DNA of 62,958 nucleotides from Pseudomonadota bacterium (GTDB lineage Bacteria > Desulfobacterota > QYQD01), in the NCBI GenBank assembly GCA_011046395.1, contig DSAQ01000150.1:1-62958 (forward strand), given 5' to 3'. Both the position numbers and the translations under genes were made by a program. Below, piece by piece: positions 13,683 to 26,965 of the stretch. The notes below the pieces were generated by a model. It ran no database searches. It worked only from the letters and a program-made list of their open reading frames with translations, and was not told the DNA's origin. How positions within the stretch are numbered: the first letter of the stretch is position 1; each line of letters opens with the position of its first letter.

Positions 13683-13707
13683 TATATAATTACCCTTAAC
13701 AGTTCGC

Positions 13708-13765
13708 CCTATCCCTCAGGTATTCTCTCAACATCCGCCTCATCGAGCGGTTCGTCCACGGCGTT
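13708..13765. repeat. 58-bp direct repeat, copy A (left edge of island / 3' end of the 70-aa ORF)
   Basis: CCTATCCCTCAGGTAT[T]CTCTCAA[C]ATC[C]GCCTCATCGAGCGGTTCGTCCACGGCGTT matches 15309-15366 at 55 of 58 positions by manual alignment. Confidence 0.85.
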
Positions 13766-13921
13766 ACGCAGCCATGATGGATCGAACCCGGCAGCCGATG
13801 AGCCCTCGATGCGGATTCGCACCATAGCCCCATCGGACTTGTCCGCCAGGTTCACAATGGCCGGTAATGCCTTGAAGACCTGCTCTCTGGTGGCTTTGGA
13901 GTTGGAAACATAGAGGCGCAT
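13709..13921 (-). CDS. Small hypothetical protein (70 aa), possibly a gene fragment
   Basis: GC-rich ORF of island-like composition with a G-rich stretch just upstream of the ATG. Its last 19 codons lie in repeat copy A. No motif recognised. Confidence 0.35.
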   Translation of the reverse strand: MRLYVSNSKATREQVFKALPAIVNLADKSDGAMVRIRIEGSSAAGFDPSWLRNAVDEPLDEADVERIPEG

Positions 13922-13969
13922 AGCCCCCCGGCAATCAATTTCTTGTTAAATGAAATAACGGCTAAGGAA

Positions 13970-14005
13970 TTTGTGTAAAGTGTATTGAGTTAGACTTTAC
14001 ACAAA
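13970..14005. promoter_or_regulatory. 12-bp perfect inverted repeat downstream of fic (terminator or operator)
   Basis: TTTGTGTAAAGT - 12 nt - ACTTTACACAAA. A third half-site, GACTTTACACAA, overlaps the fic stop codon at 14023-14034. Confidence 0.4.
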
Positions 14006-14026
14006 ACAGTTTATTGCTCATCGACT

Positions 14027-15142
14027 TTACACAACGCTTTTCCCCTCCACCAAATTGATCAGACCTGGAAATGCCATCAGAGCGGGACGTCTGCCTTTGC
14101 CCTTTTCCAACACCTTGAGTATGTCCGCTTCCCCGAGTTTTCTCAGGATCAGCATGGTAGTCGGCCGTGTCGGAATCTTTGCAAGCTGTTGGAACTGAGT
14201 GCTGCGAAAGATTGGTTGTGAGAATATGGCATCCAAAACCTGGATGGCGTATTGAGAATGGGTGAGGGTCACTATCTTGTCTTTCAATCTTCCGTAAAGG
14301 TCTATTATTGCCCTGACCGTTTTCGTGTTGTGTTCCGCCTGCTCTATCAATGCCGAAAGAAAAAACGCAATCCATCCATTCCAGTCTCCGTTTTCGGTAA
14401 TCGCCCTCAACCGTCCGTAATAGACATCACGATGTTCCTCCAGGTAGGCGCTCATGTAGAAAATGGGGCTTGAGAGCAGGCCCCTAGCATACAGGAACAG
14501 GGGGATCAACATCCGCCCCAGCCTGCCGTTGCCATCAAGGAATGGATGGATGATTTCAAATTGCGCCTTGACCACTGCAAGCTGAACAAGCTGATCCTTC
14601 TCGTCGAAATGCAGGTACTTCTCCCAGTTATCCAGAGCCGACGGCAGCTTATCGGGTGACGGTGGTACAAAAGTTGCTTCTTCCATGGAGCAGCCCGCCG
14701 GCCCGATGTAGTTTTGAATCTTTCGGAATTCGCCCGGCGCCTTGTTTCTACCTCGGACACTTTCAAGAAGGATGGCGTGCAGCTCCTTGATCAGATTCAG
14801 ACAGAGGGGGAGCTTCTTAAGATTTTCTACCGCTGCTGCCATGGCCCGACGGTAGTTGATTATCTCCTGGATGTCCGCTTGCTTTTCCGGGGTTATCTCT
14901 TTTTGTAAGGGCGCGGCCTCATATTCCAGCACCTCTTCCATACTGGCCTGGGTGCCCTCGATGCGGGAAGAAAGCACAGCCTCTTGGGTGGTCAAAGGCG
15001 AAAGCAGCACTGCCGGGTTGACCACCCCTTGGAGCATGCCGTCATACCTGGCCAGGGCGGCGTTCGCCTGTCCGATCAGGGAAACATGGGCGGCCCAGTC
15101 AACACGGTCGAGGGGCAGGCTGTCCGGTGTAAAGGGTTTCAT
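14027..15142 (-). CDS. Fic family protein (AMPylase-type, with N-terminal autoinhibitory helix and C-terminal wHTH-like region)
   Basis: Catalytic motif 'HPFLDGNGRLGRML' (HxFx[DE]GNGRxxR). An upstream inhibitory-type motif 'SSRIEG' ([ST]xxxE[GN]) is also present. 371 aa, with a GAGGAGG RBS. Confidence 0.9.
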   Translation of the reverse strand: MKPFTPDSLPLDRVDWAAHVSLIGQANAALARYDGMLQGVVNPAVLLSPLTTQEAVLSSRIEGTQASMEEVLEYEAAPLQKEITPEKQADIQEIINYRRAMAAAVENLKKLPLCLNLIKELHAILLESVRGRNKAPGEFRKIQNYIGPAGCSMEEATFVPPSPDKLPSALDNWEKYLHFDEKDQLVQLAVVKAQFEIIHPFLDGNGRLGRMLIPLFLYARGLLSSPIFYMSAYLEEHRDVYYGRLRAITENGDWNGWIAFFLSALIEQAEHNTKTVRAIIDLYGRLKDKIVTLTHSQYAIQVLDAIFSQPIFRSTQFQQLAKIPTRPTTMLILRKLGEADILKVLEKGKGRRPALMAFPGLINLVEGKSVV

Positions 15143-15243
15143 GAAATAACCTCCTCGCGCACGTCGATCTTGCCCGTTACGGCCGCAGAGATGATGCCGG
15201 AATGGTATTCGAATTTTTCAGAAAAAAGACGCAAGGTCATCAT
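15139..15243 (-). pseudogene. hsdS: Probable 3' remnant of a type I specificity subunit gene (hsdS), stop overlapping the fic ATG
   Basis: My manual translation gives MMTLRLFSEKFEYHSGIISAAVTGKIDVREEVIS*. The '..EY..(L/I)ISAAVTGKIDVR' tail is, from memory, the conserved C-terminal end of many HsdS proteins. An ATGA overlap links it to fic. The frame is closed upstream by a TAG inside repeat copy B. Confidence 0.4.
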
Positions 15244-15308
15244 CTCTCGTTTCGTGCCTTTCGTGTGTTTCGTAGCCTCTTCATAAGTCCTCACCCCTAA
15301 CAGATTAT

Positions 15309-15366
15309 CCTATCCCTCAGGTATCCTCTCAATATCTGCCTCATCGAGCGGTTCGTCCACGGCGTT
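15309..15366. repeat. 58-bp direct repeat, copy B (spans the res stop codon)
   Basis: See copy A. Here the repeat supplies the last 8 codons plus stop of res (QRRGRTAR*), in a different reading frame from the one used in copy A (NAVDEPLDEADVERIPEG*). Confidence 0.85.
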
Positions 15367-18172
15367 GCAGAATATCCCGTATCTCGCCCGGCGCTTTCGC
15401 CACCGCACAACGCCAGCGTCCGAAACCTCCATGTTCGTTCACGGCCTGGGTCCATTCGTCTAGGTAGCGCCGCTTGACCTGATCCTGTTCGGTGTCCTGT
15501 CCTTTGGTTTCCAGAACCAGCATATCGCCCGTTTTGAGGCGCATCATAAAATCGGGCCGATATTTGCGCACCACGCCGCGATAAACATAGAGCACCTCAA
15601 ATCCCAGATGGTCGTTCTTGACCCAAGCTGTCACCACGCCGCTTTCTTCCAGCGCAAAGGCATCCGACGCCTCCCACGTGCTGTCATAGACACACACGTT
15701 GATGTGCGACTTGCGGGTGCGCTCGCACGGCTTGCCGGTGTACCAGGTGCGCATCGCGCCGGTAGAACGAATGGGGTGGTCTCGGTCGAAGACCGGAGTG
15801 AGCCGTTCCGTGTTTTCTTGCCGCACCGCCTCCCAGACGTGCTGCACCACCCGTGACATATTGAGGGTGATGATCAGCCGACGGCGCAGCTCATCCTGAT
15901 AAAACAGCGGCGGGAAAATGGCGATCTTGTCGGAGCGGATGAACTCCTCCACGATGCGCACCAACTGGGCCAGCAAGACCTCGCGGCTGCCCTGCCAGGC
16001 GTGCTTCATCTGGTCGAACACGTCGCGCGCCGTCTCGAAAATGATGCGCTGGGTGCGGAACTCGCGTGCCAGCCGCTCCAACTCGATGCGGTTGATCTTG
16101 GTCACGTCCGGCTTGCCTTCCAGAACCGGGGCCAGTTCGGCCACCTGAGCCGTTTGGGAGGCATCGAGTTCGAGCCGACGCACCTTGTCCCAATCCAGCG
16201 TTAAGGTCGGCTGAAAAACGCGGTCAATGCGCAGCACGTTGGGCCAGCGGATTTCAAATTCGGCTTTCGCCGGGTCAGGTTCGACGGCGGTCTTGGGGGT
16301 CGGGGGTGGAGGCGGGCCATCCTGCCCGCCTTCGTGCGGCAAAAAGGTGAAGGGCACACCAAAGATGTTGACGTACTCCGGCTCGAACAGCCCCGTTTCG
16401 GGATTGATCTCGTAAGATGTGCGCCGCAGGCCGCGCCCCACCACCTGCTCACACAACAACTGGCTGGTGAAGGCCCTCAACCCCATGATGTGTGTCACCG
16501 TCTTGGCGTCCCAGCCCTCGGAGAGCATCCCCACCGAGATGACCTTCTGGATTTTCTCGCCCGGCTGCCCGGCCTTGCCCACCGTGTCCACCGTCCGGCG
16601 CAGCAGTTCGGCCTGTTCGGCTTTGGTCAGCTTGCGCTCCGCTGGCGCTTCGGCTTCCTCGGTCTCAGCGTCCGCTTCCGCCGTCTCCAGCGGTGCAACC
16701 GGCTCCTCCTGCGCTTCCGCCTGGTCGAGCACCTTCGAGTCAATGTGCAGGATACGCTCCGGGTCGCACAGTTCGTCAATATGGATGCGCCGGGAGTCAA
16801 AGGCGTGTTTGACCCGGGCCGCCGTCTCGGTGCGATTGCAGACGGTGATCATCACCGGCGGGGTGGGCAGATTGGCTTCATTCCATGCCTTCCACGCCTC
16901 GCGCCAGTCGTAGCTCAGCAGGTAGTAGGCGTTCAGCGCCAGGTCGGGCAGCGGCTCTTCCGGTTCGGCCTTGCGGTTCAGGTCGTCTTTTACGTCCGGA
17001 TCGTTGTAGATGTGGTAGAGGCGCGATTTGTAGGTCTTGGCGTCCGGCACGGCGTCGTCGCGCACCACCACGCGCGGGGTCTTGACCAAGCCCGACTCGA
17101 TGGCGTCGTTCAGCCCAAAATCGCTGACGATCCATCCGAAGAGCGCCTCCTCGCTGCTCTTCTTGCCCGACGGGGTGAAGGGCGTGGCGGAAAAGTCGTA
17201 ACAGGTGAGGATGCCCCGCGAGCGGTGCAGGCGATCCAGCCCGCCGATCCACACCGTCGCTTCCTCAGCGCTGTCTTTCATATCCCGGCTGCGCAGGTAT
17301 TTGCCTTCCGCTTCCCAGTTGACCCGCCAGGCGTGGTGCGCCTCGTCGTTGATGACCAGCAGGTTGCGGGCATTGGCCATCTCGCCCAGCACCTCGCGGG
17401 TGTAGGCTTCGTCGCTCTTGACGCCGCGCTTGTCCACGCTGCGCCGTTTCTTGACCTGCTCTTCGCTGTCCCAGGCCAGGGTATGCCAGTTGCGCACGAG
17501 CACCTTGCCCTGCCGCAGTTTGTCCAGCAGGGCCGAGGGCACGATGTTGAACGCCTCGTAATAGTTCCCCGCCGCAGCCGGTTCCAGCACCGCCAGCCTG
17601 CTCTTCACCGTCAGCCCCGGCGCCATTACCAGAACATTCTTGGAAAAACGGGCGTCCCGCGGATAAGCCACCTTGTTGAGGATATGCCAGGTTATCACCA
17701 TCGCCATCACGATGGTCTTGCCGGAGCCGGTAGCCATCTTGCAGCACTGGCGCAGAAAAGCCCCGCCGTCGCCGGGAATCTCGATGCCCACGCGCTCGAC
17801 GGCGGGCGCTTCCAGCAACCAGATCAGCGTCTCCACCGCCTCCAACTGGCAGAAGAAAAAGCGCCGTGCCTCGAACTCTTCCGGGTCGCGCCAGTGTTCC
17901 AGCAGCCGCTTGGTGATGCTGCTTACGCCCGGATAGCCCGCTTCGCTCCACGCCTTGACGCGCGGGCGAATCTGATTGACCAGCGGGATTTCCACAAAGA
18001 TGCCGGGGTCGTCGAAGGCCCTGGAATCGCCCGAGGCCACCACATACCCTGCCGGGCGGCGACCCTCCACGAGGTCGAACAGCCGCGTCTCGCGCTCGTA
18101 GCGCCAGTGGCGTTCCGGCTCCGCGTAGGGCGAGTTGACAATCAGGCGGTCAATGGTCGTCTGCGCCATCAA
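15341..18172 (-). CDS. res: Type III restriction enzyme Res subunit (SF2 helicase + PD-(D/E)xK nuclease)
   Basis: 943 aa. Helicase motif I 'ATGSGKT', motif II 'VINDEAHHAW', and a C-terminal nuclease motif 'YRPDFMMRL...LVLETKG'. The ATG at 18169 overlaps the mod stop (TGATG). Confidence 0.85.
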   Translation of the reverse strand: MMAQTTIDRLIVNSPYAEPERHWRYERETRLFDLVEGRRPAGYVVASGDSRAFDDPGIFVEIPLVNQIRPRVKAWSEAGYPGVSSITKRLLEHWRDPEEFEARRFFFCQLEAVETLIWLLEAPAVERVGIEIPGDGGAFLRQCCKMATGSGKTIVMAMVITWHILNKVAYPRDARFSKNVLVMAPGLTVKSRLAVLEPAAAGNYYEAFNIVPSALLDKLRQGKVLVRNWHTLAWDSEEQVKKRRSVDKRGVKSDEAYTREVLGEMANARNLLVINDEAHHAWRVNWEAEGKYLRSRDMKDSAEEATVWIGGLDRLHRSRGILTCYDFSATPFTPSGKKSSEEALFGWIVSDFGLNDAIESGLVKTPRVVVRDDAVPDAKTYKSRLYHIYNDPDVKDDLNRKAEPEEPLPDLALNAYYLLSYDWREAWKAWNEANLPTPPVMITVCNRTETAARVKHAFDSRRIHIDELCDPERILHIDSKVLDQAEAQEEPVAPLETAEADAETEEAEAPAERKLTKAEQAELLRRTVDTVGKAGQPGEKIQKVISVGMLSEGWDAKTVTHIMGLRAFTSQLLCEQVVGRGLRRTSYEINPETGLFEPEYVNIFGVPFTFLPHEGGQDGPPPPPTPKTAVEPDPAKAEFEIRWPNVLRIDRVFQPTLTLDWDKVRRLELDASQTAQVAELAPVLEGKPDVTKINRIELERLAREFRTQRIIFETARDVFDQMKHAWQGSREVLLAQLVRIVEEFIRSDKIAIFPPLFYQDELRRRLIITLNMSRVVQHVWEAVRQENTERLTPVFDRDHPIRSTGAMRTWYTGKPCERTRKSHINVCVYDSTWEASDAFALEESGVVTAWVKNDHLGFEVLYVYRGVVRKYRPDFMMRLKTGDMLVLETKGQDTEQDQVKRRYLDEWTQAVNEHGGFGRWRCAVAKAPGEIRDILQRRGRTAR

Positions 18173-20712
18173 TCCACCTCCACGATCTTCAAACTCTCGA
18201 TGCCCCGGTCATCCACAATCTTGACGGCGATGCGCCGGTGCTCACCCGCCGCAAAGGGCAGCGACACCGTGCCGCGGTAGGCTTCGATCAAACCCTCGTC
18301 GATCTCGGCCTTGAGGTTATTCGCCAGCTTTGCCCAGCCCTCCTTCTCCCCGGCCTGAGGGAAGAAGACTTGGCGCGGATACAGGCTGCGCCCATCGTAG
18401 TCGGTGTCCAGCAGCCAGACGGCGATCTGTCCCGGGCCGCCTGATTCGACGCCGCCGGTCTTGGTGTTGTAATAGTCGAAACCCTCGACGCTGACCCGCC
18501 ACTTGCCCTTGTCTTCGCCTTTGGCAATGCGCTCCAGCCGCACATCCGGCTGGCCGATGAGCCAGAAGGATTCGTTGCTGGCGCGCTTTTTCTTCAGGTC
18601 GTCGGTCAGGAGATCGGCGTTCATCTGCGCCTTGAGCAGGGTCACGCCCGGCCAGTTGGTCTCGTCAATGTCCTTGGCCGCTTCCGGGTCGAACTGAAAG
18701 GCGACAAAGACGATCAGCTTGGGCTTGGGCACGAGGGTTTGCGCCTCCTCGATAGCCTGGGCCACCTGGCGCTGTTCCAGCGGGGCATGCTCCGGGCCGA
18801 AGGAAACGACAATGCGCTGGGGAGCATAGGCTGTGCCTGCCTCGCGCACCCGGTCTGCGCCCTCGGCGCTGGGGCGGGTTTCGCCGTCGGCGTGCAGCCA
18901 GCGCGTGCCGGGAAGCGGTTCCAGCCGGGCGAAGCGGATATGCTGGCCCGCCTTGCCGCGAATCCCGGCCCGCAGTAGTTCGTCGCGCCATTCGCCCTGA
19001 CGCAAGGTCTCGCCGGAGCGGGCGATGGAGGCGTCGGCGACTTGCGGCGCCCCTTCCAGCAGTTCCTCCACCGACTTGACCGCCGGGGCGGGCACGGCCT
19101 CGACCGTGAACGGGCCGCTGACGCGGTGTTTCTTGCGATCCACCAGCGGCTGGTCGTAGAGCGTCTCCGTGGCTGGCGGCTCGTTGTTGGCAATGGATTT
19201 GAGGGTGACGTGCGGCACGGTCTTGTATTTGAAGCCGCTGCCCACGCCTTCCTGCGGGTGGGCCAGCTCGTAGTAGTCGAAGACGGCGGTCATCAGCCGC
19301 TGTTTGGCCAGCGTGAGCGCCACGCGCGAGGTGTCGCAGGTGATCCAGCGCCGCCCCCACTGCTCGGCAACATAGGCGGTGGTGCCGCTGCCACAGGTGG
19401 GGTCGAAGACCAGGTCGCCCGGGTCGGTACTCATCAGGAGGCAGCGTTGTATAACGAATTCCGACGTTTCAACTATGAAAATTCGTTTCATGGGGCCTGA
19501 TGTATCAACCCAAAAATTTGTTAATTTTTGGTAAGGAAAATCTCTATTGTATAATTTGTAAGAAAGGGTTTTTCCCTCTAACTTTATTCTATCTAACTGA
19601 ATCAACCTTTCCAGTTTTTCTTTTGAGACAATCCATGATTGTCCTTTGCTTAATGCGAATTCTTTTCCTTTATAAGTAACAGAATAATCAAGTTCAGGAG
19701 AGTAACCTGGTGCTCGTAAAGAAACTAACCGATACCACTCTTTTTCTTCCGAATCGTATACCCATCTGGATTTTCCATCAGGCATATAATCTTGATAAAG
19801 ATTTCGATATTTAAGCATTTCTATGTTTTTTGAATAAGAAATAAGATAATCATTCATGCTATCTAAATATTTTGCACCAAGAGGCATTGTCTTTTTTCTA
19901 AATGGAATCAAACTGACAAAGTTCCACACCCCAAACACCTCATCCATCAACTCGCGCACGTGATGCACATTCTCGTCGCTGATCTGGACGAAGACGCTGC
20001 CGCTCTCGGTGAGCAGTTCGCGGGCCAGCAGCAGGCGGTCGCGCAGGTAGGTCAGGTAGGAGTGGATGCCCAGTTCCCAGGTGTCGCGGAAGGCGCGGAT
20101 CTGCTCCGGCTCGGCGGTCAGGTCCTCGTCCTTGCCGTCCTTGACGTCGCGCTTGTTCACGAAGGGCTGGAAGTTCGAGCCATACTTGATGCCATAAGGC
20201 GGGTCGATGTAGATCATTTGCACCTTGCCCGCCATGCCTTCCTTTTCCAGCAGGGAGTTCATCACCAGCAGACTGTCGCCCGCTATCAGGCGGTTGCTCC
20301 ACCCGTGGGGGTGCCGGTAGAACTCGACCGCCTCCCTCAGGGGCGGGTTCTCTTTCGGCGTGGCGAAGAGGGGAAGCTGTTGTTCCGCACCGCTGCCGTT
20401 GCGCTTGCGCACCGCCTCGATGATGGTGCGCGGGTCAATGCGCTCGTGGACGTGGAGCGAGACGGTGGGCACCTCGAAGGAGGTGTTCTCGGCCTTGCCC
20501 GCCCATTGCAACTGAGGGTCCAAGTGAGGGTCGTAGGCGTAGGTCTTCCGCTGCCCGGCGTCCGGGTCGGTGTCGGGCGTCACCAGGCCGACGGGCGGGT
20601 TGTTGACCCGTTTTTTGTCGGTGTGCTCGTAAGACGCAATCGGGCGTTTAGGATCGGCCTTCTTTTTCCTTACCATAGCTTCCTGCCTCATCAAAGATAG
20701 TTTATTATCCAA
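18169..20712 (-). CDS. mod: Type III-like N6-adenine DNA methyltransferase Mod (beta class) with long C-terminal extension
   Basis: 'IYIDPPYGIKYGSNF' (motif IV) precedes 'VFDPTCGSGTT' (motif I), which is the beta-class order. 847 aa. The track start is TTG at 20712. An ATG at 20676 (MVRKKK..., AGGA RBS) is more likely. Confidence 0.85.
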   Translation of the reverse strand: MDNKLSLMRQEAMVRKKKADPKRPIASYEHTDKKRVNNPPVGLVTPDTDPDAGQRKTYAYDPHLDPQLQWAGKAENTSFEVPTVSLHVHERIDPRTIIEAVRKRNGSGAEQQLPLFATPKENPPLREAVEFYRHPHGWSNRLIAGDSLLVMNSLLEKEGMAGKVQMIYIDPPYGIKYGSNFQPFVNKRDVKDGKDEDLTAEPEQIRAFRDTWELGIHSYLTYLRDRLLLARELLTESGSVFVQISDENVHHVRELMDEVFGVWNFVSLIPFRKKTMPLGAKYLDSMNDYLISYSKNIEMLKYRNLYQDYMPDGKSRWVYDSEEKEWYRLVSLRAPGYSPELDYSVTYKGKEFALSKGQSWIVSKEKLERLIQLDRIKLEGKTLSYKLYNRDFPYQKLTNFWVDTSGPMKRIFIVETSEFVIQRCLLMSTDPGDLVFDPTCGSGTTAYVAEQWGRRWITCDTSRVALTLAKQRLMTAVFDYYELAHPQEGVGSGFKYKTVPHVTLKSIANNEPPATETLYDQPLVDRKKHRVSGPFTVEAVPAPAVKSVEELLEGAPQVADASIARSGETLRQGEWRDELLRAGIRGKAGQHIRFARLEPLPGTRWLHADGETRPSAEGADRVREAGTAYAPQRIVVSFGPEHAPLEQRQVAQAIEEAQTLVPKPKLIVFVAFQFDPEAAKDIDETNWPGVTLLKAQMNADLLTDDLKKKRASNESFWLIGQPDVRLERIAKGEDKGKWRVSVEGFDYYNTKTGGVESGGPGQIAVWLLDTDYDGRSLYPRQVFFPQAGEKEGWAKLANNLKAEIDEGLIEAYRGTVSLPFAAGEHRRIAVKIVDDRGIESLKIVEVD

Positions 20713-21829
20713 CTGTGCCCCTTATGGACGGACTTCTCCCGGCTGGCTTTCGCGTAGCCTTCGCCTTCTTCTTGCTCTTTGGGGGCGTCCCTGGTTTCTT
20801 GCGCCGCGTCTCCAGCATCTTTGCGGAGGTCCGCAGGTCTTCCACGTACCGCGCCTCGGCCTGGGCTTCCGCTTCCAGCCGCCGCCTTTCTGCGAAGGCG
20901 TCGTATTGTCCCTGCGCCCATTCGAGCGCCTCGTCACGGCTGACCGTGCCGGGTCCGAAGAGCACGGGCAATTCGGTGTCGCGCAGGAACTTATCGAGAA
21001 ACCCTTCCCAGTCGCGCATACGAATATCCTGCCGCCGCTGGGCGCGGAACTCGGCTTGGTCGAGGAACATCACGGTGATCCGGTTGAGCGTGTCGATCTC
21101 CTTGGCGTCAAGATAGTTCTTCGCCGTTCCCACGTCGCGCTTGAGCACTCGGCCGCCCTTCCATGAAGTAAGTCCCATGTTGGCCTCGCCCGCGTCGGCC
21201 CGCCGGCAGACGATCTCCGCCGCCGTCATACCCGCAGCGGCGTAGTGCATCTTGTTCTGCATGGTCGCGAAGAAGACCTGCGTTTCTTCTTCCCCCTCCC
21301 GGTAGTCGCGGGCCAGCGCGAAGATCTCGCGAATCCGCTGATAGACCCGCGCCTCGCTGGCGCGAATTTCGCGGATGCGGGCAAGCAGTTCGTCGAAATA
21401 ATCCACCAGCCCTTTGCCGCCCTTGAGCCGCTCATCGTCCAGAGTAAATCCCTTGACGATATACTCCCGCAAGCGGGCCGTGGCCCACTGGCGGAACCGG
21501 GTGGCGACGGCGGATTTGACCCGGTAGCCGACCGCGATGATCATGTCTAAGTTGTAGTAATCGAGCAGCCGCCGAACCGTGCGTGGCCCCTCCGGGCGAA
21601 CTGTCAAGTATTTCTTGACGGTTGCCTCCGGGGCCAGTTCGCCTTCCTCAAAAATGTTTTGTATGTGAAGGCTTATGTTCTGCTTGGTGGTCTCATAAAG
21701 CTCGGCCATCAGGTTTTGCGTCAGCCAGACGGTCTCATCCTGAAGTCGCACCTCAAGCCGGGTCTCGCCGGAATCGGATTGATAAATCAGTATCTTGGTA
21801 TCATCCGGAATGGGTAGGTTTTCGGTCAT
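20705..21829 (-). CDS. rhuM: RhuM-family protein (R-M-associated 'guest' gene)
   Basis: 'IYQSDSGETRLEVRLQDETVWLTQNLMAELYETTKQNISLHIQNIFEEGEL' and 'VGYRVKSAVATRFRQWATARLREYIVKGFTLDDERLK' match the RhuM family as I remember it. The ATG overlaps the hsdM stop (ATGA). Confidence 0.8.
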   Translation of the reverse strand: MTENLPIPDDTKILIYQSDSGETRLEVRLQDETVWLTQNLMAELYETTKQNISLHIQNIFEEGELAPEATVKKYLTVRPEGPRTVRRLLDYYNLDMIIAVGYRVKSAVATRFRQWATARLREYIVKGFTLDDERLKGGKGLVDYFDELLARIREIRASEARVYQRIREIFALARDYREGEEETQVFFATMQNKMHYAAAGMTAAEIVCRRADAGEANMGLTSWKGGRVLKRDVGTAKNYLDAKEIDTLNRITVMFLDQAEFRAQRRQDIRMRDWEGFLDKFLRDTELPVLFGPGTVSRDEALEWAQGQYDAFAERRRLEAEAQAEARYVEDLRTSAKMLETRRKKPGTPPKSKKKAKATRKPAGRSPSIRGTVG

Positions 21830-23838
21830 TCCGTCACCTCCGCGAGCATGTCGGCGATTTCCTTCTCGATCTTTTTGAGATCGGCTTCAATCTCGTCCAG
21901 CGGTCTCGGCGGCGTGTACCTGTAAAAATACCGGTTAAATTTGATCTCATACCCGACCTTGGTTTTGGACTCGTCCACCCAGGCATCGGGCACGTGTGGT
22001 AGGACTTCCCGCTTCATGTACTCGTCCACGTCTTCTTTGAGCGGGACGTTCTCGAAGTCGCGCAGTTCGGGATCGGCTTCCGGGTTGCCCTTGGCGTCGG
22101 TGCACACGTCGGCCGTCTCGTCACGCTCGGCCAGGGCCATGAGGATCGTCTTAAACAAAGCGGAGGTAATCTTGAGGCCCGACTTCTTGAACGCCGCCTG
22201 CACCATCTCCGAGAACTGGTCGCGGTTCTTGACGATGCCCTTACCGGCAAGCGGCAGCAGGGCGGCCACGATGTCTTCTTGCTGCTTGCGGCCCTCTTCG
22301 ATCTCGGCCTGCGCGGCCTTTGTATCCTTTCGCTTCTTGCTGGCGGCGAGATTGGCGAAGGCCGTGGTTTCCTTGAGGCGGTTAATTCGAGGCTGGTCCA
22401 CCGCGAAGTTAAGCCGCAGGGGACGTTCCACGGTGATGCGGCGATAGCCGAAGTCCTCGTTATCGAAAATGCGGACATGATCCGCGTCTTTCAAATTCCC
22501 ATAGAGCCGGGTAATCTCGTCGCGCTGGTCATCGCAGACCTCGTTCCGCTTATTGCCGAGGGACTTGCGCATCTTTTTGAAGAAGGACGTTCCATCCACC
22601 AGTTGAATCTTGCCCTTGCGGCCCGGCTTCTTCCGGTTGGTGACGATCCAGAGGTAGGTGTAGATTCCGGTGTTGTAGAAGAGCTGGTCCGGTAGGGCGA
22701 CAATGGCCTCCAGCCAATCGTTTTCGATGATCCAGCGGCGGATTTCGCTCTCTCCCGACCCGGCCGCACCGGTGAACAGCGGCGAACCGTTGAAGACGAT
22801 TCCAAGTCGGGTGCCGCCCTCCTTCGGGTCCTTCATCTTGCTGATCATGTGCATGATAAAGAGAAGGGAGCCGTCATTGATGCGAGGCAGTCCCGCGCCG
22901 AAACGTCCTCCAAAACCCTGTTCTTCATGTTCGCGTGTGATGAAGTCGGCTTCCGGCTTCCACTCCACACCGAAGGGCGGATTGGCCAGCATGTAATCGA
23001 ACTTGTGACGAGGAAACCGGCCGTCGGTAAAGCTGTCGCCAAAGGCGATGTGCTCGATGTCCTGTCCCTTGATCATCATGTCCGAACCGCAGATGGCGTA
23101 AGCCTGGGCGTTGTAGTCCTGGCCGAAAACCTCCAGGCGGGCGTCGGGGTTGAGCTCGCGCACGTAGTCCTCGGCCACGGAGAGCATACCGCCCGTTCCG
23201 CAGGCCGGGTCATAGAGGGTCTTCACGATTCCCTTGGTGGTAAGGATGTCGCCATCCGGCATAAAGAGGAGGTTCACCATCAGGCGAATGACCTCACGGG
23301 GGGTGAAGTGATCTCCGGCCTCCTCGTTCGATGCCTCGTTGAATCTCCGGATCAGCTCCTCGAAGATGTAGCCCATCTCGATGTTCGAGACGACGTGCGG
23401 GTGGAGGTCAATATCGCAGAACTTGGACACGACTAGATAGAGCCGGTCGGCCTTGTCGATCTTGGCGATATGTTCCTCGAATCCGAAGTGCTCGATGATC
23501 TCTCGTGCCCGCGTGGAGAATCCCTTGATGTAGTTGGTCAGATTTGCGGCGATGTTGTCCGGATCGCCTTTGAGCTTTTCGAAGGTGTAACGGCTTGTGT
23601 TGTAGAAAGGCACACCTGTGACGCGGCAGAGAATGGAATCGACCTTCTTGACCTTGCCGCCCGAAAGTTTCTTCTGCTGTTCGAGAACCTTGTCTTTGGT
23701 AGGCTCCAGGACGCAGTCGAGGCGGCGAAGAACGGTCAGGGGGAGCATGATGTCCTTGTACTGGTTTGGCCGGTAGGGTCCGCGAATGAGGTCGGCAACC
23801 GACCAAATGAAGCTGACTTTTTCGCCGAAGTTATTCAT
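21826..23838 (-). CDS. hsdM: Type I restriction-modification methyltransferase subunit HsdM (no adjacent hsdS/hsdR)
   Basis: HsdM_N-like 'FIWSVADLIRGPYRPNQYKDIMLPLTVLRRLDCVL', AdoMet motif 'DPACGTGGML', catalytic 'LANPPFGVEW', and a C-terminal 'VGYEIKFNRYFYRY' tail. Confidence 0.9.
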   Translation of the reverse strand: MNNFGEKVSFIWSVADLIRGPYRPNQYKDIMLPLTVLRRLDCVLEPTKDKVLEQQKKLSGGKVKKVDSILCRVTGVPFYNTSRYTFEKLKGDPDNIAANLTNYIKGFSTRAREIIEHFGFEEHIAKIDKADRLYLVVSKFCDIDLHPHVVSNIEMGYIFEELIRRFNEASNEEAGDHFTPREVIRLMVNLLFMPDGDILTTKGIVKTLYDPACGTGGMLSVAEDYVRELNPDARLEVFGQDYNAQAYAICGSDMMIKGQDIEHIAFGDSFTDGRFPRHKFDYMLANPPFGVEWKPEADFITREHEEQGFGGRFGAGLPRINDGSLLFIMHMISKMKDPKEGGTRLGIVFNGSPLFTGAAGSGESEIRRWIIENDWLEAIVALPDQLFYNTGIYTYLWIVTNRKKPGRKGKIQLVDGTSFFKKMRKSLGNKRNEVCDDQRDEITRLYGNLKDADHVRIFDNEDFGYRRITVERPLRLNFAVDQPRINRLKETTAFANLAASKKRKDTKAAQAEIEEGRKQQEDIVAALLPLAGKGIVKNRDQFSEMVQAAFKKSGLKITSALFKTILMALAERDETADVCTDAKGNPEADPELRDFENVPLKEDVDEYMKREVLPHVPDAWVDESKTKVGYEIKFNRYFYRYTPPRPLDEIEADLKKIEKEIADMLAEVTE

Positions 23839-24173
23839 GACTGCTCCTGATCCTGACCCTGGCTCAGGGCCTGCTGCTTGCCGTGACGACGGCGGCGGCG
23901 CAAGCAGTTCGCCTGGATCGGCAGTAAATATTCTATCAATCTACGGTCGTTAGACATTCGTTTCTCGCTATCCCTCATCGTCCTTGGCCCCTTTGTCCCC
24001 TTTATGTCCCCTTTTGTCATCGGGGTGACATGTCCCGTTTGTCGGGTTTTTATCGGGTTGCCGTGAGCCCCCTGAGGGGCTGACTGGCGCATTTGGCGCA
24101 TTTCTGGCGCGATTAAGAAATGTGCTCATTGTCTCCCAATGAGGCGTTTGATGCGTTTGTGATGCGTTTATAT

Positions 24174-25646
24174 TCATGAGTCCTTTGAGTCCTTTGTGAT
24201 GCGTTTCCTCATGAGTATATAATGAGTGCCCTTGCCTGTGATTCCAACTTTCTTCAGAATTTTCTTGGTGAATAGATCGTCGAGATCCCGCGTCGCAGTA
24301 GCCCTCGAAACACCGAATAACTTCTGATATTCGGAGTTGGAGATGCGACCATTTTTCTTAACATGAGTCAGAGCCTGAATCTGCCGCTCATTCAGCTTGT
24401 ACCCGGCCAGCACCTTCGGCGTCAGCCAGTCCCGCCAGACCGTGCTTGTAAACTCTCCGCCTCGTTGAACGAAATCAGGCTCAGGAAGGGCATGGGCAAG
24501 GCTCTCCCGGATCATCATGAGAGTGCCGGTACCGTATTTCTCGATATAGCGGGCGAGAAAGAGAGCCTCGCATATACGGAAGTTGCGGGCTATGGAGCCA
24601 TGGGGCAGGCGCAGACTTTCAGGGGTGAGCGGCGAAACCAGCGTGCCGGGGTTCCATACTTCCACGCGGTCTGCAAAGACGGAAACCTGCACGGCTCCGG
24701 CCGAGGTATAGTCTCGGTGGGCAATGGCGTTGACAATAGCCTCACGGATCACATCAGGTGGTATTTCATAACGAACAGGGGCCTGAGTGCTTTCGGACCG
24801 GGTGCCTACACTTCTATTAAGCTTTGACATGACAAAGTCCACTGCCATATCCACCTGCTCAAAGAGGGTGCCCTTGAAGATGCGGTAAAAGGGGACAGGG
24901 CGTTGAATCTCGGTGCCGTGGAAATGCATACAGCGCACTTCGGAGGCCGGAAGGAAACGCTGAGGGTCCCGGCCAAAAAGGAGTATGGCGGCGTTGCTTG
25001 GATGATCACCACAAAGAAGATGCAGGTGTGCAAGCACATCAGCCACGGGGGTCTTGATCGGAAGCGGAAACTGGCGCTCAAGCCTGGCAAGACGCACAAA
25101 ATCCGTGACGGCTTGCTCGTCCATATCGCCGAGGGTTGCATCTGCGCAGGTTCTTTCTTCGAAGGGACGGTTTTGAATTGTGCCGCACACTTCAAGATAA
25201 TCCACAAGGCTTGAATAGAGTGCCTCGATCAACTCGGAAATACTGCCAAACCTTTTTCGGATAAGCTGTCGGCCGACCTTTGCGATCAGCGCACGCATCT
25301 TTGGATGACGACCGGCATCTTCTTTGCCCTTGACGAAAACAAGACGTACCTTGCCGTGAGCAGTAGCAAGGTCAAACTCGCGCTCTGTAGGGGAGATACT
25401 CTTGGCATCCTCTGATCCATACTCATTTCCAAACAGGCCTACGTATGCATCGCACTCTTCGACCTCTTTCAGATACACATCGTCCGCTTTGCGGTCACTG
25501 GCAGGCAGGTCTTCAAACAGAAATACGTCAAAGAAACGCCGGAGCAAGGGATCATTCTGCACAAACTCCTTGATGGCACGCCGTTCTGCTTGCAGTTCCT
25601 TCTGGACGCTGCTGATGAAGATTCTTTTCCGGTGCGCCGCCATCAC
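24174..25646 (-). CDS. DUF4062-like N-terminal domain fused to an AlbA_2/Schlafen-like, HATPase_c_4-like and wHTH protein
   Basis: N-terminus 'IFISSVQKELQAERRAIKEFV...VFLFEDLPA...AYVGLFGNEYG' resembles DUF4062. The middle 'AILLFGRDPQRFLP...VRCMHFHG' and 'REAIVNAIAHRDY...RNFRICEALFLARYIEKYGTG' resemble the RecG-like 'putative DNA-binding/ATP-binding' family. The C-terminal 'NERQIQALTHVKKNGRISNSEYQKLFGVSRATATRDLDDL' is a wHTH. Confidence 0.65.
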   Translation of the reverse strand: MMAAHRKRIFISSVQKELQAERRAIKEFVQNDPLLRRFFDVFLFEDLPASDRKADDVYLKEVEECDAYVGLFGNEYGSEDAKSISPTEREFDLATAHGKVRLVFVKGKEDAGRHPKMRALIAKVGRQLIRKRFGSISELIEALYSSLVDYLEVCGTIQNRPFEERTCADATLGDMDEQAVTDFVRLARLERQFPLPIKTPVADVLAHLHLLCGDHPSNAAILLFGRDPQRFLPASEVRCMHFHGTEIQRPVPFYRIFKGTLFEQVDMAVDFVMSKLNRSVGTRSESTQAPVRYEIPPDVIREAIVNAIAHRDYTSAGAVQVSVFADRVEVWNPGTLVSPLTPESLRLPHGSIARNFRICEALFLARYIEKYGTGTLMMIRESLAHALPEPDFVQRGGEFTSTVWRDWLTPKVLAGYKLNERQIQALTHVKKNGRISNSEYQKLFGVSRATATRDLDDLFTKKILKKVGITGKGTHYILMRKRITKDSKDS

Positions 25647-25851
25647 GAAAAGCCTCCTTCAAGACGAGCCGCTTGCTGTACTGCATCTGCCGGAATTTGG
25701 TAGAACCTCGCCGCCACGATCCCTGCCTGCGCCGGGGCTCGCGACGCGGCAGGCAGGCTAGTTGTAGGAATCACTGCCTACGAATGCCAACGAAACCAGT
25801 GAGAAGTATATTTAAGCGGACCAGTCCCGTCAAGGACAAAAGCCTTGAGCT

Positions 25852-26946
25852 TTAAATCAGGGCTTCCATAATGGCATCATGGATGAGCGGCCGGAAGGCC
25901 TTTATTTTTTCATTGGTCCGGCTGGGGTGAATACGGTTGGTAAGAAGGATCACAATGATTCCTCCCTCCAGGTCCATCCAGAAGGATACACCGGTAAACC
26001 CAAGGTGGCCGACGCTTTCCCGGGAAAAATACCGGCCGGCGCTCGATCCCTCTTCGGATGGGGTATCAAAGCCCAGCGCCCAGGTGGTCCCACGAGGCGA
26101 CCCCTGCCGCGCCAGAAAAACCGACATTAATTCGTGCCTGAAGAGTCCCGTCTCTGTTTCTCCCCGATAAGCCTTTAATATCATCTTAAGCAGGCCATAT
26201 AACTCTTCCGCCGCGCCAAACAGACCGGCATGACCGCACACCCCGCCCACGGCATAGGCGTTGTCATCATGCACCTCGCCGCACAAGACCTTTTTGCGCC
26301 AGGGGCACTCCTCTGTGGCCGCTATCACCCCGGGCTCAGGTAAGCTGCGGCTATTAAGAGGCCGAAACCCGGTAAAAACCAGGCCGAGGGGCCGGTAAAT
26401 GTTAGACGAGGCAAACTCATCCAGTCCCTGGCCGGAGGCCTTCTCCATTATCCATTCGAGCAGCATGAACCCCAGGTCGCTGTAAAGAGCCGCTTCCCCG
26501 GGGACAGCAGCCAGGGGTTCATCCAGGAGCCACCCGCGTAATATCTTTTTTCGTTCCCCCGGGGGATAAGCCCTTAACCTCTCAAAATAAGGTTGATAGG
26601 CAGGCATACCCGAGGAGTGGGAAAGAAGCTGTCTCAAGGTAATTCCCGCCTTGGGATTATCCTGGCCAAGACCTAAGATACCTCCTATTTTTTGATCGAT
26701 CTCCAACTCACCATTGGCCACCAGGGCCATGATCGCCATGGAGGTAGCCAGGGGTTTGGTAAGGGAGGCCAGGTCAAAAAGCGTATTTGTCGTCATTAAT
26801 TGTCTGGACGGAATAATAGAGGCATGCCCATAGGCGCGATGGGATAAGACCTTCTCCTCAGCCGATATAAGGAGCACGGCGCCCGGGAAAGCGTCTTCTT
26901 CTACGGCCTGATGCATAAGAGTGTCGACTTTTGAAAAGACAGGCAT
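25852..26946 (-). CDS. Serine hydrolase, beta-lactamase class C / PBP4*-like family
   Basis: 'SLTKPL' (SxxK) nucleophile motif, 'YSDLGFMLL', and 'GHLGFTG' near the C-terminus. The track ORF extends to 27261 but that part overlaps ldcA. The Met at 26946 (MPVFSKVDTLMHQAV...) is the likely start. Confidence 0.75.
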   Translation of the reverse strand: MPVFSKVDTLMHQAVEEDAFPGAVLLISAEEKVLSHRAYGHASIIPSRQLMTTNTLFDLASLTKPLATSMAIMALVANGELEIDQKIGGILGLGQDNPKAGITLRQLLSHSSGMPAYQPYFERLRAYPPGERKKILRGWLLDEPLAAVPGEAALYSDLGFMLLEWIMEKASGQGLDEFASSNIYRPLGLVFTGFRPLNSRSLPEPGVIAATEECPWRKKVLCGEVHDDNAYAVGGVCGHAGLFGAAEELYGLLKMILKAYRGETETGLFRHELMSVFLARQGSPRGTTWALGFDTPSEEGSSAGRYFSRESVGHLGFTGVSFWMDLEGGIIVILLTNRIHPSRTNEKIKAFRPLIHDAIMEALI

Positions 26947-26965
26947 GTTAGCTGTTAATGCGGGC

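What the first reader, a model, noticed from the sequence alone, without database searches (positions are those of the whole stretch)
13708..25851. Integrase-less, compositionally foreign defence island with a mosaic type I / type III restriction-modification core
The sequence changes character between a phosphohexomutase gene (ends 13682) and a serine hydrolase/ldcA pair (from 25852). It becomes much richer in G+C by eye. One sign is that the ORF track fills with long antisense ORFs, for example 648 aa opposite res. Every gene in the block is defence-type: DUF4062/AlbA_2 protein, hsdM, rhuM, mod, res, an hsdS stub and fic. hsdM has no hsdS or hsdR partner. Instead, three tight junctions make one co-directional unit: hsdM-rhuM (ATGA overlap), rhuM-mod (overlap or <=30 nt depending on start choice) and mod-res (TGATG overlap). 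That unit holds two m6A methyltransferases of different classes (gamma NPPF and beta DPPY) but only one helicase-nuclease. One reading is a decayed type I system overwritten by a type III cassette. The other is a functional hybrid in which HsdM and RhuM act with a type III core. No integrase, transposase or tRNA marks either edge.
Basis: partly seen in the sequence, partly recalled or inferred. Interest (0 to 1): 0.75.

Follow-up and report, generated by a model that had tools for sequence, protein, structure and literature searches.

The report
Patchwork defence hotspot, not a hybrid
This 12-kb block is a real integrase-less defence-gene hotspot between two housekeeping genes, but its "type I/type III hybrid" core is a recombination patchwork: a self-sufficient type III-like restriction system lying next to an orphaned fragment of a type I system.

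Summary
The island is real. A related metagenome contig has the serine-hydrolase gene and pgm about 55 nt apart (empty site). Three other relatives carry different cargo at the same site. One of them has a complete hsdM-rhuM-hsdS-hsdR operon. Another has mod-res (Res 96% identical) with no hsdM or rhuM.

Only hsdM, rhuM, mod and res are compositionally foreign (GC3 0.74-0.81 against 0.57±0.06 for the backbone). fic and the DUF4062 gene look like backbone.

mod-res is an autonomous two-gene cassette (Res = NCBIfam BPTD_3080 family). In 80 genomes from many phyla it never has hsdM or rhuM within 10 kb.

Junction relics show that mod-res overwrote a DUF1156-DUF499 (BREX-related) gene pair. hsdM-rhuM sits inside the leftover DUF1156 5' stub. 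The "hsdS stub" is older debris, because it coexists with a complete hsdS in the sister genome.

No hsdS or hsdR lies anywhere in the 63-kb contig, so HsdM is predicted to be inactive unless an S subunit is supplied from elsewhere.

The mod gene is itself mosaic. A 467-nt target-recognition segment has 32% GC inside a 61-66% GC frame.

Verdict: a well-resolved but ordinary case of defence-hotspot turnover. The functional-hybrid reading is not supported.

The parts
25852..27261 (-). Left flank: beta-lactamase-fold serine hydrolase (core gene). The island starts at about 25858.
   Evidence: Pfam Beta-lactamase 1.4e-50. Homology to the empty-site contig L095 ends at window 25859. It is 90-93% nt identical to L087 and L095.
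24174..25646 (-). DUF4062 + HATPase_c_4 + winged-HTH protein (490 aa). This is a separate module with backbone-like composition.
   Evidence: Pfam. Present at the same site in L092/L093 and absent from L087 and L095. GC3 0.58.
23973..24059 (-). Relic of the 3' end of a 136-aa ORF that is intact in L092/L093.
   Evidence: blastn 85% over 88 nt to L093 4788-4873.
23898..23951 (-). First half of a DUF1156-methylase 5' relic (MSNDRRLIEYLLPIQANCLR).
   Evidence: 89% nt to L093 6867-6920, where the 46-aa ORF is continuous. That ORF's best plasmid matches are the N-termini of annotated DUF1156 proteins. Pfam could not confirm it because it is too short.
21826..23838 (-). hsdM: type I gamma-class methyltransferase, 670 aa, intact, with no partner genes.
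   Evidence: Pfam HsdM_N + N6_Mtase. PADLOC MTase_I PDLC03029, 996 bits end to end. 86% nt to L087 hsdM-rhuM. dN/dS 0.15. 3 private changes at invariant columns, rank 6 of 100.
20705..21829 (-). rhuM: accessory gene typical of type I operons. Its last ~10 codons were replaced at the junction.
   Evidence: Pfam Virulence_RhuM 1.3e-103; PADLOC PDC-S05. Homology to L087 ends at 20736. C-terminal tails compared.
20692..20741 (-). Second half of the DUF1156 5' relic (REKSVHKGHSWIINYL*), directly upstream of mod.
   Evidence: Homology to L093 6954 onward starts at window 20741. Other mod-res loci match only from about 20691.
18169..20676 (-). mod: type III-like beta-class methyltransferase (835 aa from the ATG; 847 aa from the TTG at 20712).
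   Evidence: Pfam N6_N4_Mtase 4e-31. PADLOC MTase_III PDLC03632, 489 bits. Best PDB hits are type III Mods 6k0w and 4zcf. Found upstream of res in 72 of 80 genome loci.
19450..19916 (-). Swapped-in target-recognition segment of mod, GC 0.319.
   Evidence: Composition. None of 80 loci has nucleotide homology here. About 25-35% aa identity to L092 Mod here, against 93-97% outside. Best database relative is 53% identical.
15341..18169 (-). res: SF2 helicase-like ATPase with a C-terminal PD-(D/E)xK nuclease. Its native C-terminal tail was replaced at ...GEIRDIL.
   Evidence: NCBIfam NF046055 BPTD_3080 family, 1166 bits (cutoff 800). Pfam ResIII. Motifs GSGKT, DEAH, QVVGRGLRR and PDF...ETK read. 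C-termini compared.
15293..15366 (-). D1 copy A: 74-nt relic of the 3' end of a DUF499 gene, fused to the end of res.
   Evidence: Direct repeat D1, 89% identity; 0 matches in 100 shuffles. Alignment A1.
15148..15210 (-). hsdS 3' stub (last ~21 codons). This is old debris shared with L087.
   Evidence: PADLOC Specificity_I, profile positions 421-441 of 448, E 1.6e-6. The window stretch 15368..15039 is 97% nt identical to L087 17571-17900.
14027..15142 (-). fic: SoFic-like Fic protein (371 aa, HPFLDGNGRLGR motif intact).
   Evidence: Pfam Fic_N + Fic. PADLOC SoFic 384 bits. NCBIfam SoFic 183 bits, below the 550 cutoff. Truncated to 43 codons in L087 and absent in L093.
13709..13921 (-). orf70: 3' relic of a DUF499 ATPase gene.
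   Evidence: 228 hits, nearly all matching at or near the C-terminus of the target protein. The full-length hits P0248 and P0322 are Pfam DUF499.
13692..13765 (-). D1 copy B (end of orf70 plus 17 nt), abutting pgm.
11958..13682 (-). Right flank: phosphoglucomutase/phosphomannomutase-family gene (core gene).
   Evidence: Pfam PGM_PMM I-IV. Syntenic in L087, L093, L095 and L096.

Best explanation
Window 13685-25858 is a chromosomal defence hotspot between two core genes, a beta-lactamase-fold hydrolase and pgm. Cassettes are exchanged there by recombination without any dedicated mobility gene.

Its present content is a patchwork of independent modules:
1. A complete, autonomous type III-like restriction-modification pair, mod-res. 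The inferred mechanism follows the type III paradigm: Mod carries the sequence-recognition segment and methylates one strand of an asymmetric site, and Res is an ATP-driven helicase-like motor with a C-terminal PD-(D/E)xK nuclease that cuts unmodified DNA.
2. An orphan type I fragment, hsdM-rhuM. It has no S or R subunit in the contig, so it is predicted to be unable to methylate or restrict on its own.
3. An intact SoFic-like fic gene.
4. A DUF4062/HATPase_c_4/HTH gene.
5. Dead relics: a split DUF1156 5' stub, two DUF499 3' stubs and an hsdS 3' stub.

Inferred history: mod-res replaced the interior of a DUF1156-DUF499 (BREX-related) gene pair. The hsdM-rhuM fragment then landed in the DUF1156 stub just upstream of mod, or a full type I operon landed there and later lost hsdS-hsdR. 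In a sister lineage, recombination between the two 74-nt DUF499 relics deleted hsdS-stub-fic-orf70.

The tight hsdM-rhuM-mod-res spacing may still allow co-transcription, but it is a by-product of cassette turnover, not a co-evolved four-gene system.

Shown: the anatomy, the synteny variants, the junctions and the relic identities. Inferred: the enzymatic mechanism, the inactivity of HsdM and the order of events.
For: - Empty site: L095 has blac, then about 55 nt, then pgm.
- Four other states at the same site: L087 has hsdM-rhuM-hsdS-hsdR plus relics. L096 has the hsdR end, a 21/22-nt match to the res 3' end, and a fic fragment. L092/L093 have DUF4062, GmrSD_N and mod-res directly next to pgm. 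The window/L001/L002 arrangement is the fourth.
- mod-res is autonomous. In 80 loci from many phyla, 72 show mod upstream of res and none has an hsdM or rhuM match (one weak fic match was not examined). No conserved third gene lies on either side.
- Family assignment: Res scores 1166 bits on NF046055. Mod's best PDB matches are type III Mods.
- HsdM's normal partners are hsdS and hsdR, often with rhuM or DUF1016 embedded (PMC9881135).
- No hsdS or hsdR is present in the window.
- Relics: orf70 and D1 derive from the DUF499 C-terminus. The 46-aa ORF matches DUF1156 N-termini, and DUF1156 is followed by DUF499 on a Nostoc plasmid.
- L093's D1 is a chimera of window copy A (left part) and copy B (right part).
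- Composition.
Against: - All partners are metagenome contigs or MAGs, so a compatible hsdS elsewhere in this genome cannot be excluded.
- HsdM is intact, with dN/dS 0.15 against the sister genome and only 3 private changes at invariant positions. Decay is therefore not visible; the gene could still be under selection.
- The DUF1156 identity of the 46-aa ORF rests on weak individual E-values (3e-3 to 0.8) and Pfam did not detect it.
- Res has no sequence match to any solved structure and the AlphaFold model failed. Its type III mechanism is inferred from motifs and family names only.
- The order of events is not uniquely determined.
Confidence: 0.82

Rival explanations
1. Literal version of the first reader's reading 1. 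A complete hsdM-rhuM-hsdS-hsdR operon sat here, as in the sister genome L087, and the incoming mod-res cassette replaced exactly hsdS-hsdR.
For: - L087 carries the complete operon at the same site.
- Homology between the window and L087 ends at 20736, about 10 nt before the position of L087's hsdS start.
- Homology resumes at the DUF499 relic downstream of hsdR.
- The right junction (D1, hsdS stub, fic) is 97% identical to L087.
Against: - hsdM-rhuM is flanked on both sides by the two halves of a 46-aa ORF that is continuous directly upstream of mod in L093.
- L087 lacks the 5' half of that ORF and the DUF4062 module upstream of hsdM. This scenario therefore needs extra, coincident events.
- L096 shows a res-end relic downstream of hsdR, so type I cassettes have also overwritten mod-res at this site.
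Confidence: 0.2
2. Functional hybrid. HsdM and RhuM act together with Mod and Res as one four-gene system with two methyltransferases and one helicase-nuclease.
For: - The four genes are co-directional with tight junctions: ATGA, 28 nt and TGATG.
- All four ORFs are intact.
- HsdM shows no clear decay.
Against: - 0 of 80 mod-res loci have hsdM or rhuM nearby.
- The nearest mod-res allele at the same site works in a context without them.
- None of the HsdM homologue contexts examined has mod-res.
- The rhuM/mod junction is a recombination scar inside an older gene relic and it truncates rhuM's tail.
- Type I methyltransferases need HsdS for DNA recognition (established knowledge; review PMC3874165).
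Confidence: 0.04
3. Orphan HsdM is kept because it pairs with an HsdS (and perhaps an HsdR) encoded elsewhere in the genome. The type I system would then be split rather than dead.
For: HsdM is full length, with intact NPPF and AdoMet motifs and purifying selection over its history.
Against: - No hsdS or hsdR lies in 63 kb.
- The family's operons are normally contiguous.
- The rest of the genome could not be searched.
Confidence: 0.12

Closest known systems
Core defence hotspots (e.g. cDHS1 of Pseudomonas aeruginosa; PMC10250203)
   Same: - A variable defence-gene block is bounded by conserved core genes.
- There are no obvious mobile-element genes.
- Content differs among close relatives and includes an empty state.
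- GC differs from the backbone.
- Turnover is attributed to homologous recombination in the flanks.
   Different: - Only five states were seen here, all from uncultured Thermodesulfobacteriota-like metagenome contigs.
- Here the internal junctions preserve nucleotide-level relics of at least three earlier occupants, so individual replacement and deletion events can be read.
Type III restriction-modification systems (EcoP15I/EcoPI paradigm; m4C subgroup of PMC8259958)
   Same: - Gene order is mod then res, with overlapping stop and start.
- Mod is a beta-class methyltransferase with DPPY, then the recognition segment, then FxGxG.
- Res has GSGKT and DEAH helicase motifs and a C-terminal PD-(D/E)xK.
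- The recognition segment is exchangeable between alleles.
   Different: - Res belongs to a separate curated family (NCBIfam BPTD_3080).
- Res has no detectable sequence match to EcoP15I Res or any solved structure.
- The methylated base (m6A or m4C) and the recognition site are unknown.
- In 44 of 72 family loci, extra small genes sit between mod and res.
Type I R-M operons with embedded accessory genes (rhuM, fic, DUF1016; PMC9881135)
   Same: - The hsdM-rhuM pair with an ATGA overlap is the same arrangement as in the complete operons of L087 and L088.
- fic follows an hsdS 3' end.
   Different: Here hsdS and hsdR are missing. Only a 21-codon hsdS stub of older origin remains.
DUF1156 methylase / DUF499 ATPase 'BREX-related' systems (PMC12839542)
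   Same: A 5' stub resembling DUF1156 N-termini and two 3' stubs of a DUF499 gene lie in the expected gene order around mod-res.
   Different: Only relics survive, about 46 and 70 codons long. No functional component is present.

Membership tests
Type III R-M system | Mod is a beta-class N6/N4 amino-methyltransferase with motif IV (DPPY) before the recognition domain and motif I (FxGxG) after it. | tested here: met
   IYIDPPYG and VFDPTCGSGTT are in that order. Pfam N6_N4_Mtase covers residues 164-470. PADLOC MTase_III scores 489 bits. Top PDB hits are type III Mods.
Type III R-M system | Res has SF2 helicase/ATPase motifs plus a C-terminal PD-(D/E)xK nuclease. | tested here: inconclusive
   Motifs read by eye: MATGSGKT, NDEAHHAW, QVVGRGLRR, RPDF...LETKG. 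Pfam ResIII scores 33 bits and NF046055 scores 1166 bits. However, there is no PDB sequence match and the structure model was unusable (pLDDT 32.6).
Type III R-M system | mod lies immediately upstream of res as a self-contained pair. | tested here: met
   TGATG overlap. mod is upstream of res in 72 of 80 loci. No conserved third gene is present.
Type III R-M system | Hemimethylation of an asymmetric site, and cleavage that needs two inversely oriented sites and ATP. | not testable with these tools
   This needs a methylome and biochemistry.
Type I R-M system | HsdM (gamma-class methyltransferase, NPPF). | tested here: met
   Pfam HsdM_N + N6_Mtase. PADLOC MTase_I scores 996 bits. The NCBIfam hsdM equivalog scores only 84.5 bits, below the 242.75 cutoff.
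Type I R-M system | HsdS specificity subunit. | tested here: not met
   Only the last ~21 codons are present. This stub also coexists with a full hsdS in L087.
Type I R-M system | HsdR helicase-nuclease. | tested here: not met
   tblastn with L087 HsdR finds no match in the whole window; the best E-value is 1.9.
Core defence hotspot | The same pair of conserved flanking core genes holds different cargo in relatives, including an empty state. | tested here: met
   L095 is empty. L087, L096, L092/L093 and the window each carry different cargo.
Core defence hotspot | No integrase, transposase or tRNA hallmark. | tested here: met
   Small ORFs have no such domains.
SoFic defence protein | Full-length match to the SoFic model and an intact Fic motif. 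| tested here: inconclusive
   PADLOC SoFic scores 384 bits end to end. The NCBIfam SoFic equivalog scores 183 bits, below its 550 cutoff. The HPFLDGNGRLGR motif is present.

The most novel reading that the evidence does not exclude
The orphan HsdM (with RhuM) is not debris. It has been co-opted into the adjacent Mod-Res operon. For example, it could add a second methyl mark or modulate Res without any HsdS, giving a genuine type I/type III chimeric system confined so far to this lineage.
Probability: 0.04. Interest if true: 0.8.

Novelty: new member of a known kind. Interest (0 to 1): 0.35.

Why it matters
- The locus is a clean, nucleotide-resolved example of how defence hotspots are rebuilt without mobility genes. 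Whole cassettes overwrite one another, leaving 5' and 3' stubs of the previous occupant. Those stubs then serve as recombination substrates; a 74-nt relic pair mediated a 1.6-kb deletion in a sister lineage.
- It warns against reading tight gene spacing in defence islands as evidence of a multi-component system.
- It flags the BPTD_3080-type mod-res pair as an unusually conserved cassette (68-96% aa identity across many phyla and one archaeon). The cassette has a swappable, low-GC recognition segment and a cargo slot between mod and res. That may deserve its own study.

Tried and rejected
- AlphaFold2 model of Res from a 25-sequence alignment (87-96% identical) gave mean pLDDT 32.6. It was unusable, so no fold search was run.
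- Res against PDB sequences: no hit.
- Pfam on the short relic ORFs (orf70, hsdS stub, orf88, the 46-aa ORF and its halves): no hits. They were identified instead by a full-library phmmer search, PADLOC and tblastn against plasmids.
- Exact look-up of Res from the TTG start failed. The ATG start one codon later is the recorded gene.
- The metagenome scan with pgm returned only two loci, but both were informative.
- The context of DUF499 homologue P0248 was a 4.4-kb contig and too short to show a DUF1156 N-terminus.
- No DUF499 or DUF1156 genes occur in the other fetched loci.
- The promoter/terminator scan was not clearly above chance: 10 promoter-like sites against 4.7±2.4 expected, and 12 terminator-like sites against 14.5±3.6.
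- A literature search for 'BPTD_3080' found nothing.
- The supplements of PMC8259958 hold no sequences, so the link between this family and the m4C enzymes (Bpe564I, PleII) could not be tested.
- I considered and rejected the idea that 15368 and 20691 are universal cassette ends. They are simply where this window's own junctions lie. Native Res tails continue beyond ...GEIRDIL in other loci.
Full report
**What is at the coordinates**

All genes lie on the minus strand. In transcription order they are:
- a beta-lactamase-fold hydrolase (25852-27261, flank);
- a DUF4062 + HATPase_c_4 + wHTH protein (24174-25646);
- hsdM (21826-23838, 670 aa);
- rhuM (20705-21829);
- mod (18169-20676 from the ATG, or 20712 from the TTG);
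- res (15341-18169);
- an hsdS 3' stub (15148-15210);
- fic (14027-15142);
- a 70-codon ORF (13709-13921);
- pgm (11958-13682, flank).

Domain assignments come from Pfam, PADLOC and NCBIfam.
- HsdM matches the 661-position PADLOC profile MTase_I PDLC03029 end to end (996 bits).
- Mod matches MTase_III PDLC03632 (489 bits).
- Res passes the curated cutoff of NCBIfam NF046055, 'BPTD_3080 family restriction endonuclease' (1166 bits against a cutoff of 800). It gives only weak matches to generic ResIII models.

There is no tRNA in the window and no integrase or transposase domain in the block.

**Composition**

The G+C rise is real but narrower than claimed.
- GC: res 0.627, mod outside its middle 0.61-0.66, rhuM 0.60, hsdM 0.57, against 0.51 for the whole window.
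- GC3: 0.74-0.81 for these four genes, against 0.573±0.058 (maximum 0.737) for 28 backbone ORFs.
- fic (GC3 0.63) and the DUF4062 gene (0.58) are backbone-like.
- Inside mod there is a sharp trough at 19450-19916, with GC 0.319.

**The island is real: related genomes at the same site**

Exact-protein look-ups and one metagenome scan recovered four other states of the same chromosomal site. All are from relatives with 86-96% nucleotide identity in the flanks.
1. L095 is an empty site. The hydrolase gene's 3' end (matching window 26242..25859) is followed by about 55 nt and then the pgm start.
2. L087 (a Thermodesulfobacteriota MAG) has hydrolase, hsdM, rhuM, hsdS (420 aa), hsdR (1003 aa), relics, then pgm.
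3. L096 has an hsdR 3' end, a 21/22-nt match to the res 3' end, a fic 5' fragment, then pgm.
4. L092/L093 have hydrolase, the DUF4062 gene, a 136-aa ORF, GmrSD_N, a 223-aa ORF, a 46-aa ORF, mod, res (96% aa identical to the window's), then pgm after 76 nt. They have no hsdM, rhuM or fic.

This behaves like the 'core defence hotspots' described in Pseudomonas: conserved core flanks, no mobile-element marks, variable cargo, and turnover attributed to recombination (PMC10250203).

**mod-res is an autonomous cassette**

- A scan of one genome per species returned more than 560 Res relatives. The 80 best (68-91% aa identity) come from Planctomycetota, Chloroflexota, Cyanobacteria, several proteobacterial groups, Nitrospirota, Acidobacteriota and even Methanoperedens.
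- tblastn with every island protein showed mod upstream of res in 72 of the 80 loci. There was no hsdM or rhuM match within 10 kb in any of them. One locus gave a weak fic match (below the 60-bit display cut-off), which I did not examine.
- Clustering all ORFs of at least 150 aa within 6 kb on either side found no gene shared by more than 2-3 loci. So there is no third component.
- Every informative context of HsdM homologues shows a type I operon or a decayed one. Examples are hsdM-rhuM-hsdS-hsdR (L087), hsdM-rhuM-PycTM-hsdS-DUF488-DUF488-DuOB-hsdR (L088), hsdM-DUF1016-hsdS-... (L089), and hsdM-YhcG/NucS-159 aa with no S or R (L083-86, L091).
- Embedding of rhuM, fic and DUF1016 genes between type I core genes is documented (PMC9881135).
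- No hsdS or hsdR is present anywhere in the 62,958-nt window, which is a whole contig.

**Junction archaeology: right side**

- Res homologues are conserved up to ...PGEIRDIL and then have variable tails.
- In the window, that point is joined to a 74-nt sequence (D1 copy A, 15293-15366). A second copy lies at 13692-13765 (copy B, 89% identical), at the end of orf70.
- A search of 1.8 billion representative proteins showed that orf70 nearly always aligns to the extreme C-terminus of its hits. The full-length hits are Pfam DUF499 proteins.
- D1 copy A, the hsdS stub and the fic 5' end are 97% identical to L087. There they lie downstream of a complete hsdS-hsdR. So the stub is older debris, not the remnant of this hsdM's partner.
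- In L093 a single D1 links res to pgm. Alignment A1 shows it is a chimera: its left part matches copy A and its right part matches copy B. That is the expected product of recombination between the two copies in a window-like ancestor, deleting hsdS-stub-fic-orf70.

**Junction archaeology: left side**

- Homology to L087 (hsdM-rhuM) spans 23878..20736.
- Homology to L093 spans up to 23898 and resumes from 20741.
- The two L093-like pieces are the halves of a 46-aa ORF that is continuous directly upstream of mod in L093.
- The best matches of that ORF in 72,556 plasmids are the N-termini of annotated DUF1156 proteins. On a Nostoc plasmid the gene order is helicase, hypothetical, DUF1156, DUF499. 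Individual E-values are weak (3e-3 to 0.8) and Pfam could not confirm, so this identification is probable, not proven.
- Together with the DUF499 3' relic after res, the simplest reading is that mod-res replaced the interior of a DUF1156-DUF499 pair. That pair is the methylase/ATPase core of 'BREX-related' systems (PMC12839542).
- hsdM-rhuM, lacking rhuM's last ~10 codons, then came to lie inside the DUF1156 stub. Either it inserted as a fragment, or a full type I operon inserted and hsdS-hsdR were later deleted.
- The alternative, that mod-res replaced hsdS-hsdR in an L087-like operon, needs additional coincident events. I rate it lower but cannot exclude it.

**State of the genes**

- HsdM is intact. 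Its dN/dS against L087 is 0.15, like pgm's 0.14. It has 3 private substitutions at columns invariant in 99 homologues (rank 6 of 100). That is slightly high but is not decay.
- Res has 1 such change (rank 39 of 115).
- The Res motifs GSGKT, DEAH, QVVGRGLRR and PDF...ETK, the Mod motifs DPPY and FxGxG, and the Fic motif HPFLDGNGRLGR are all present.
- Mod's best solved relatives are type III Mods (6k0w and 4zcf).
- Res has no PDB sequence match and its AlphaFold model failed. The type III mechanism is therefore an inference from motifs, gene order and curated family names.
- Whether Mod makes m6A or m4C is open. Type III m4C enzymes exist, including one in Bordetella pertussis, the species that gave the NCBIfam family its name (PMC8259958).

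**mod is itself mosaic**

- No other locus has nucleotide similarity across 19916-19450.
- Against the near-identical L092 allele, Mod is 93-97% identical outside this segment and about 25-35% identical inside it.
- Across the family, this segment is consistently poorer in G+C than its frame (median 0.50 against 0.62). The window's 0.32 is at the extreme low end.
- The segment's best relative among 5.8 billion proteins is only 53% identical.
- This is recognition-domain swapping, a known behaviour of type III mod genes (my own knowledge, not checked here).

**Verdict**

The interpretation needs revision.
- There is no evidence for a type I/type III functional hybrid.
- The type III cassette is a stand-alone system.
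- The type I part is an orphan fragment.
- The locus is a layered record of at least four successive defence systems.

This is a good example of a known phenomenon rather than a new kind of system.

Noticed in passing
L003-L082 (mod-res loci); compare window 18169-18172: In 44 of 72 family loci, mod and res are separated by 0.3-7.5 kb of small accessory genes. By eye these look like MNT/HEPN-like pairs, PIN-like proteins, ~270-aa TIR-like proteins, ~470-aa AAA ATPases, a DUF4258/DUF2283-like pair, an M78/HTH protein, a BRO-N/DinD-like protein and a transposase. The mod/res junction therefore seems to be a cargo slot. In the window it is empty (TGATG overlap). None of these domain calls was tested with Pfam.
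   Followed up: partly
window 15341-20691 versus L003-L082: Res and the Mod frame are 68-96% aa identical across more than a dozen bacterial phyla and one archaeon (Methanoperedens, L079). They keep high G+C whatever the host, and no mobility gene is associated with them. How such a cassette spreads is unexplained.
   Followed up: partly
window 13309-13334 and 15275-15300: A 26-nt stretch inside pgm (encoding LGVRSYKEA) matches 24/26 the sequence immediately after D1 copy A; the pattern built from the two copies found no match in 100 shuffles of the window. The same sequence follows the DUF499 relic in L087. It may be a scar of an old rearrangement involving pgm. It remains unexplained.
   Followed up: partly
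L092 6993-10001 (Mod, 1002 aa): The sister allele of Mod carries a ~125-aa DUF559/MTES_1575 (Vsr-like endonuclease) insertion at about residue 543. In L093 the same gene is split into two ORFs.
   Followed up: no
L096 ~405-430: Downstream of an hsdR gene lies 'CGAGATTCGGGATATTCTGCAA', which matches 21/22 the last conserved codons of res (EIRDILQ). This suggests that a type I cassette overwrote mod-res in that lineage, so replacement runs in both directions.
   Followed up: partly
window 24084-24206: Three imperfect ~31-nt direct repeats (ATGAGGCGTTTGATGCGTTTGTGATGCGTTT-like) straddle the 3' end of the DUF4062 gene and the spacer before the relic region (family D2). A terminator-like hairpin lies at 24143-24125.
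   Followed up: no
L083-L086, L091: Another orphan arrangement of the same HsdM family (91% aa) occurs in Thermosynergistes-like contigs: HTH_17, hsdM, a YhcG/NucS-like nuclease and a 159-aa ORF, followed by unrelated genes, with no hsdS or hsdR. Orphaned hsdM-plus-accessory remnants recur.
   Followed up: no
L015 7807-8313; L025 6634-7152: Proteins similar to the window's DUF4062-gene product (29% identical over its middle part, query residues ~200-390) lie just downstream of res (L015) or between mod and res (L025) in unrelated genomes. This hints at a recurrent association of this protein type with restriction loci.
   Followed up: no
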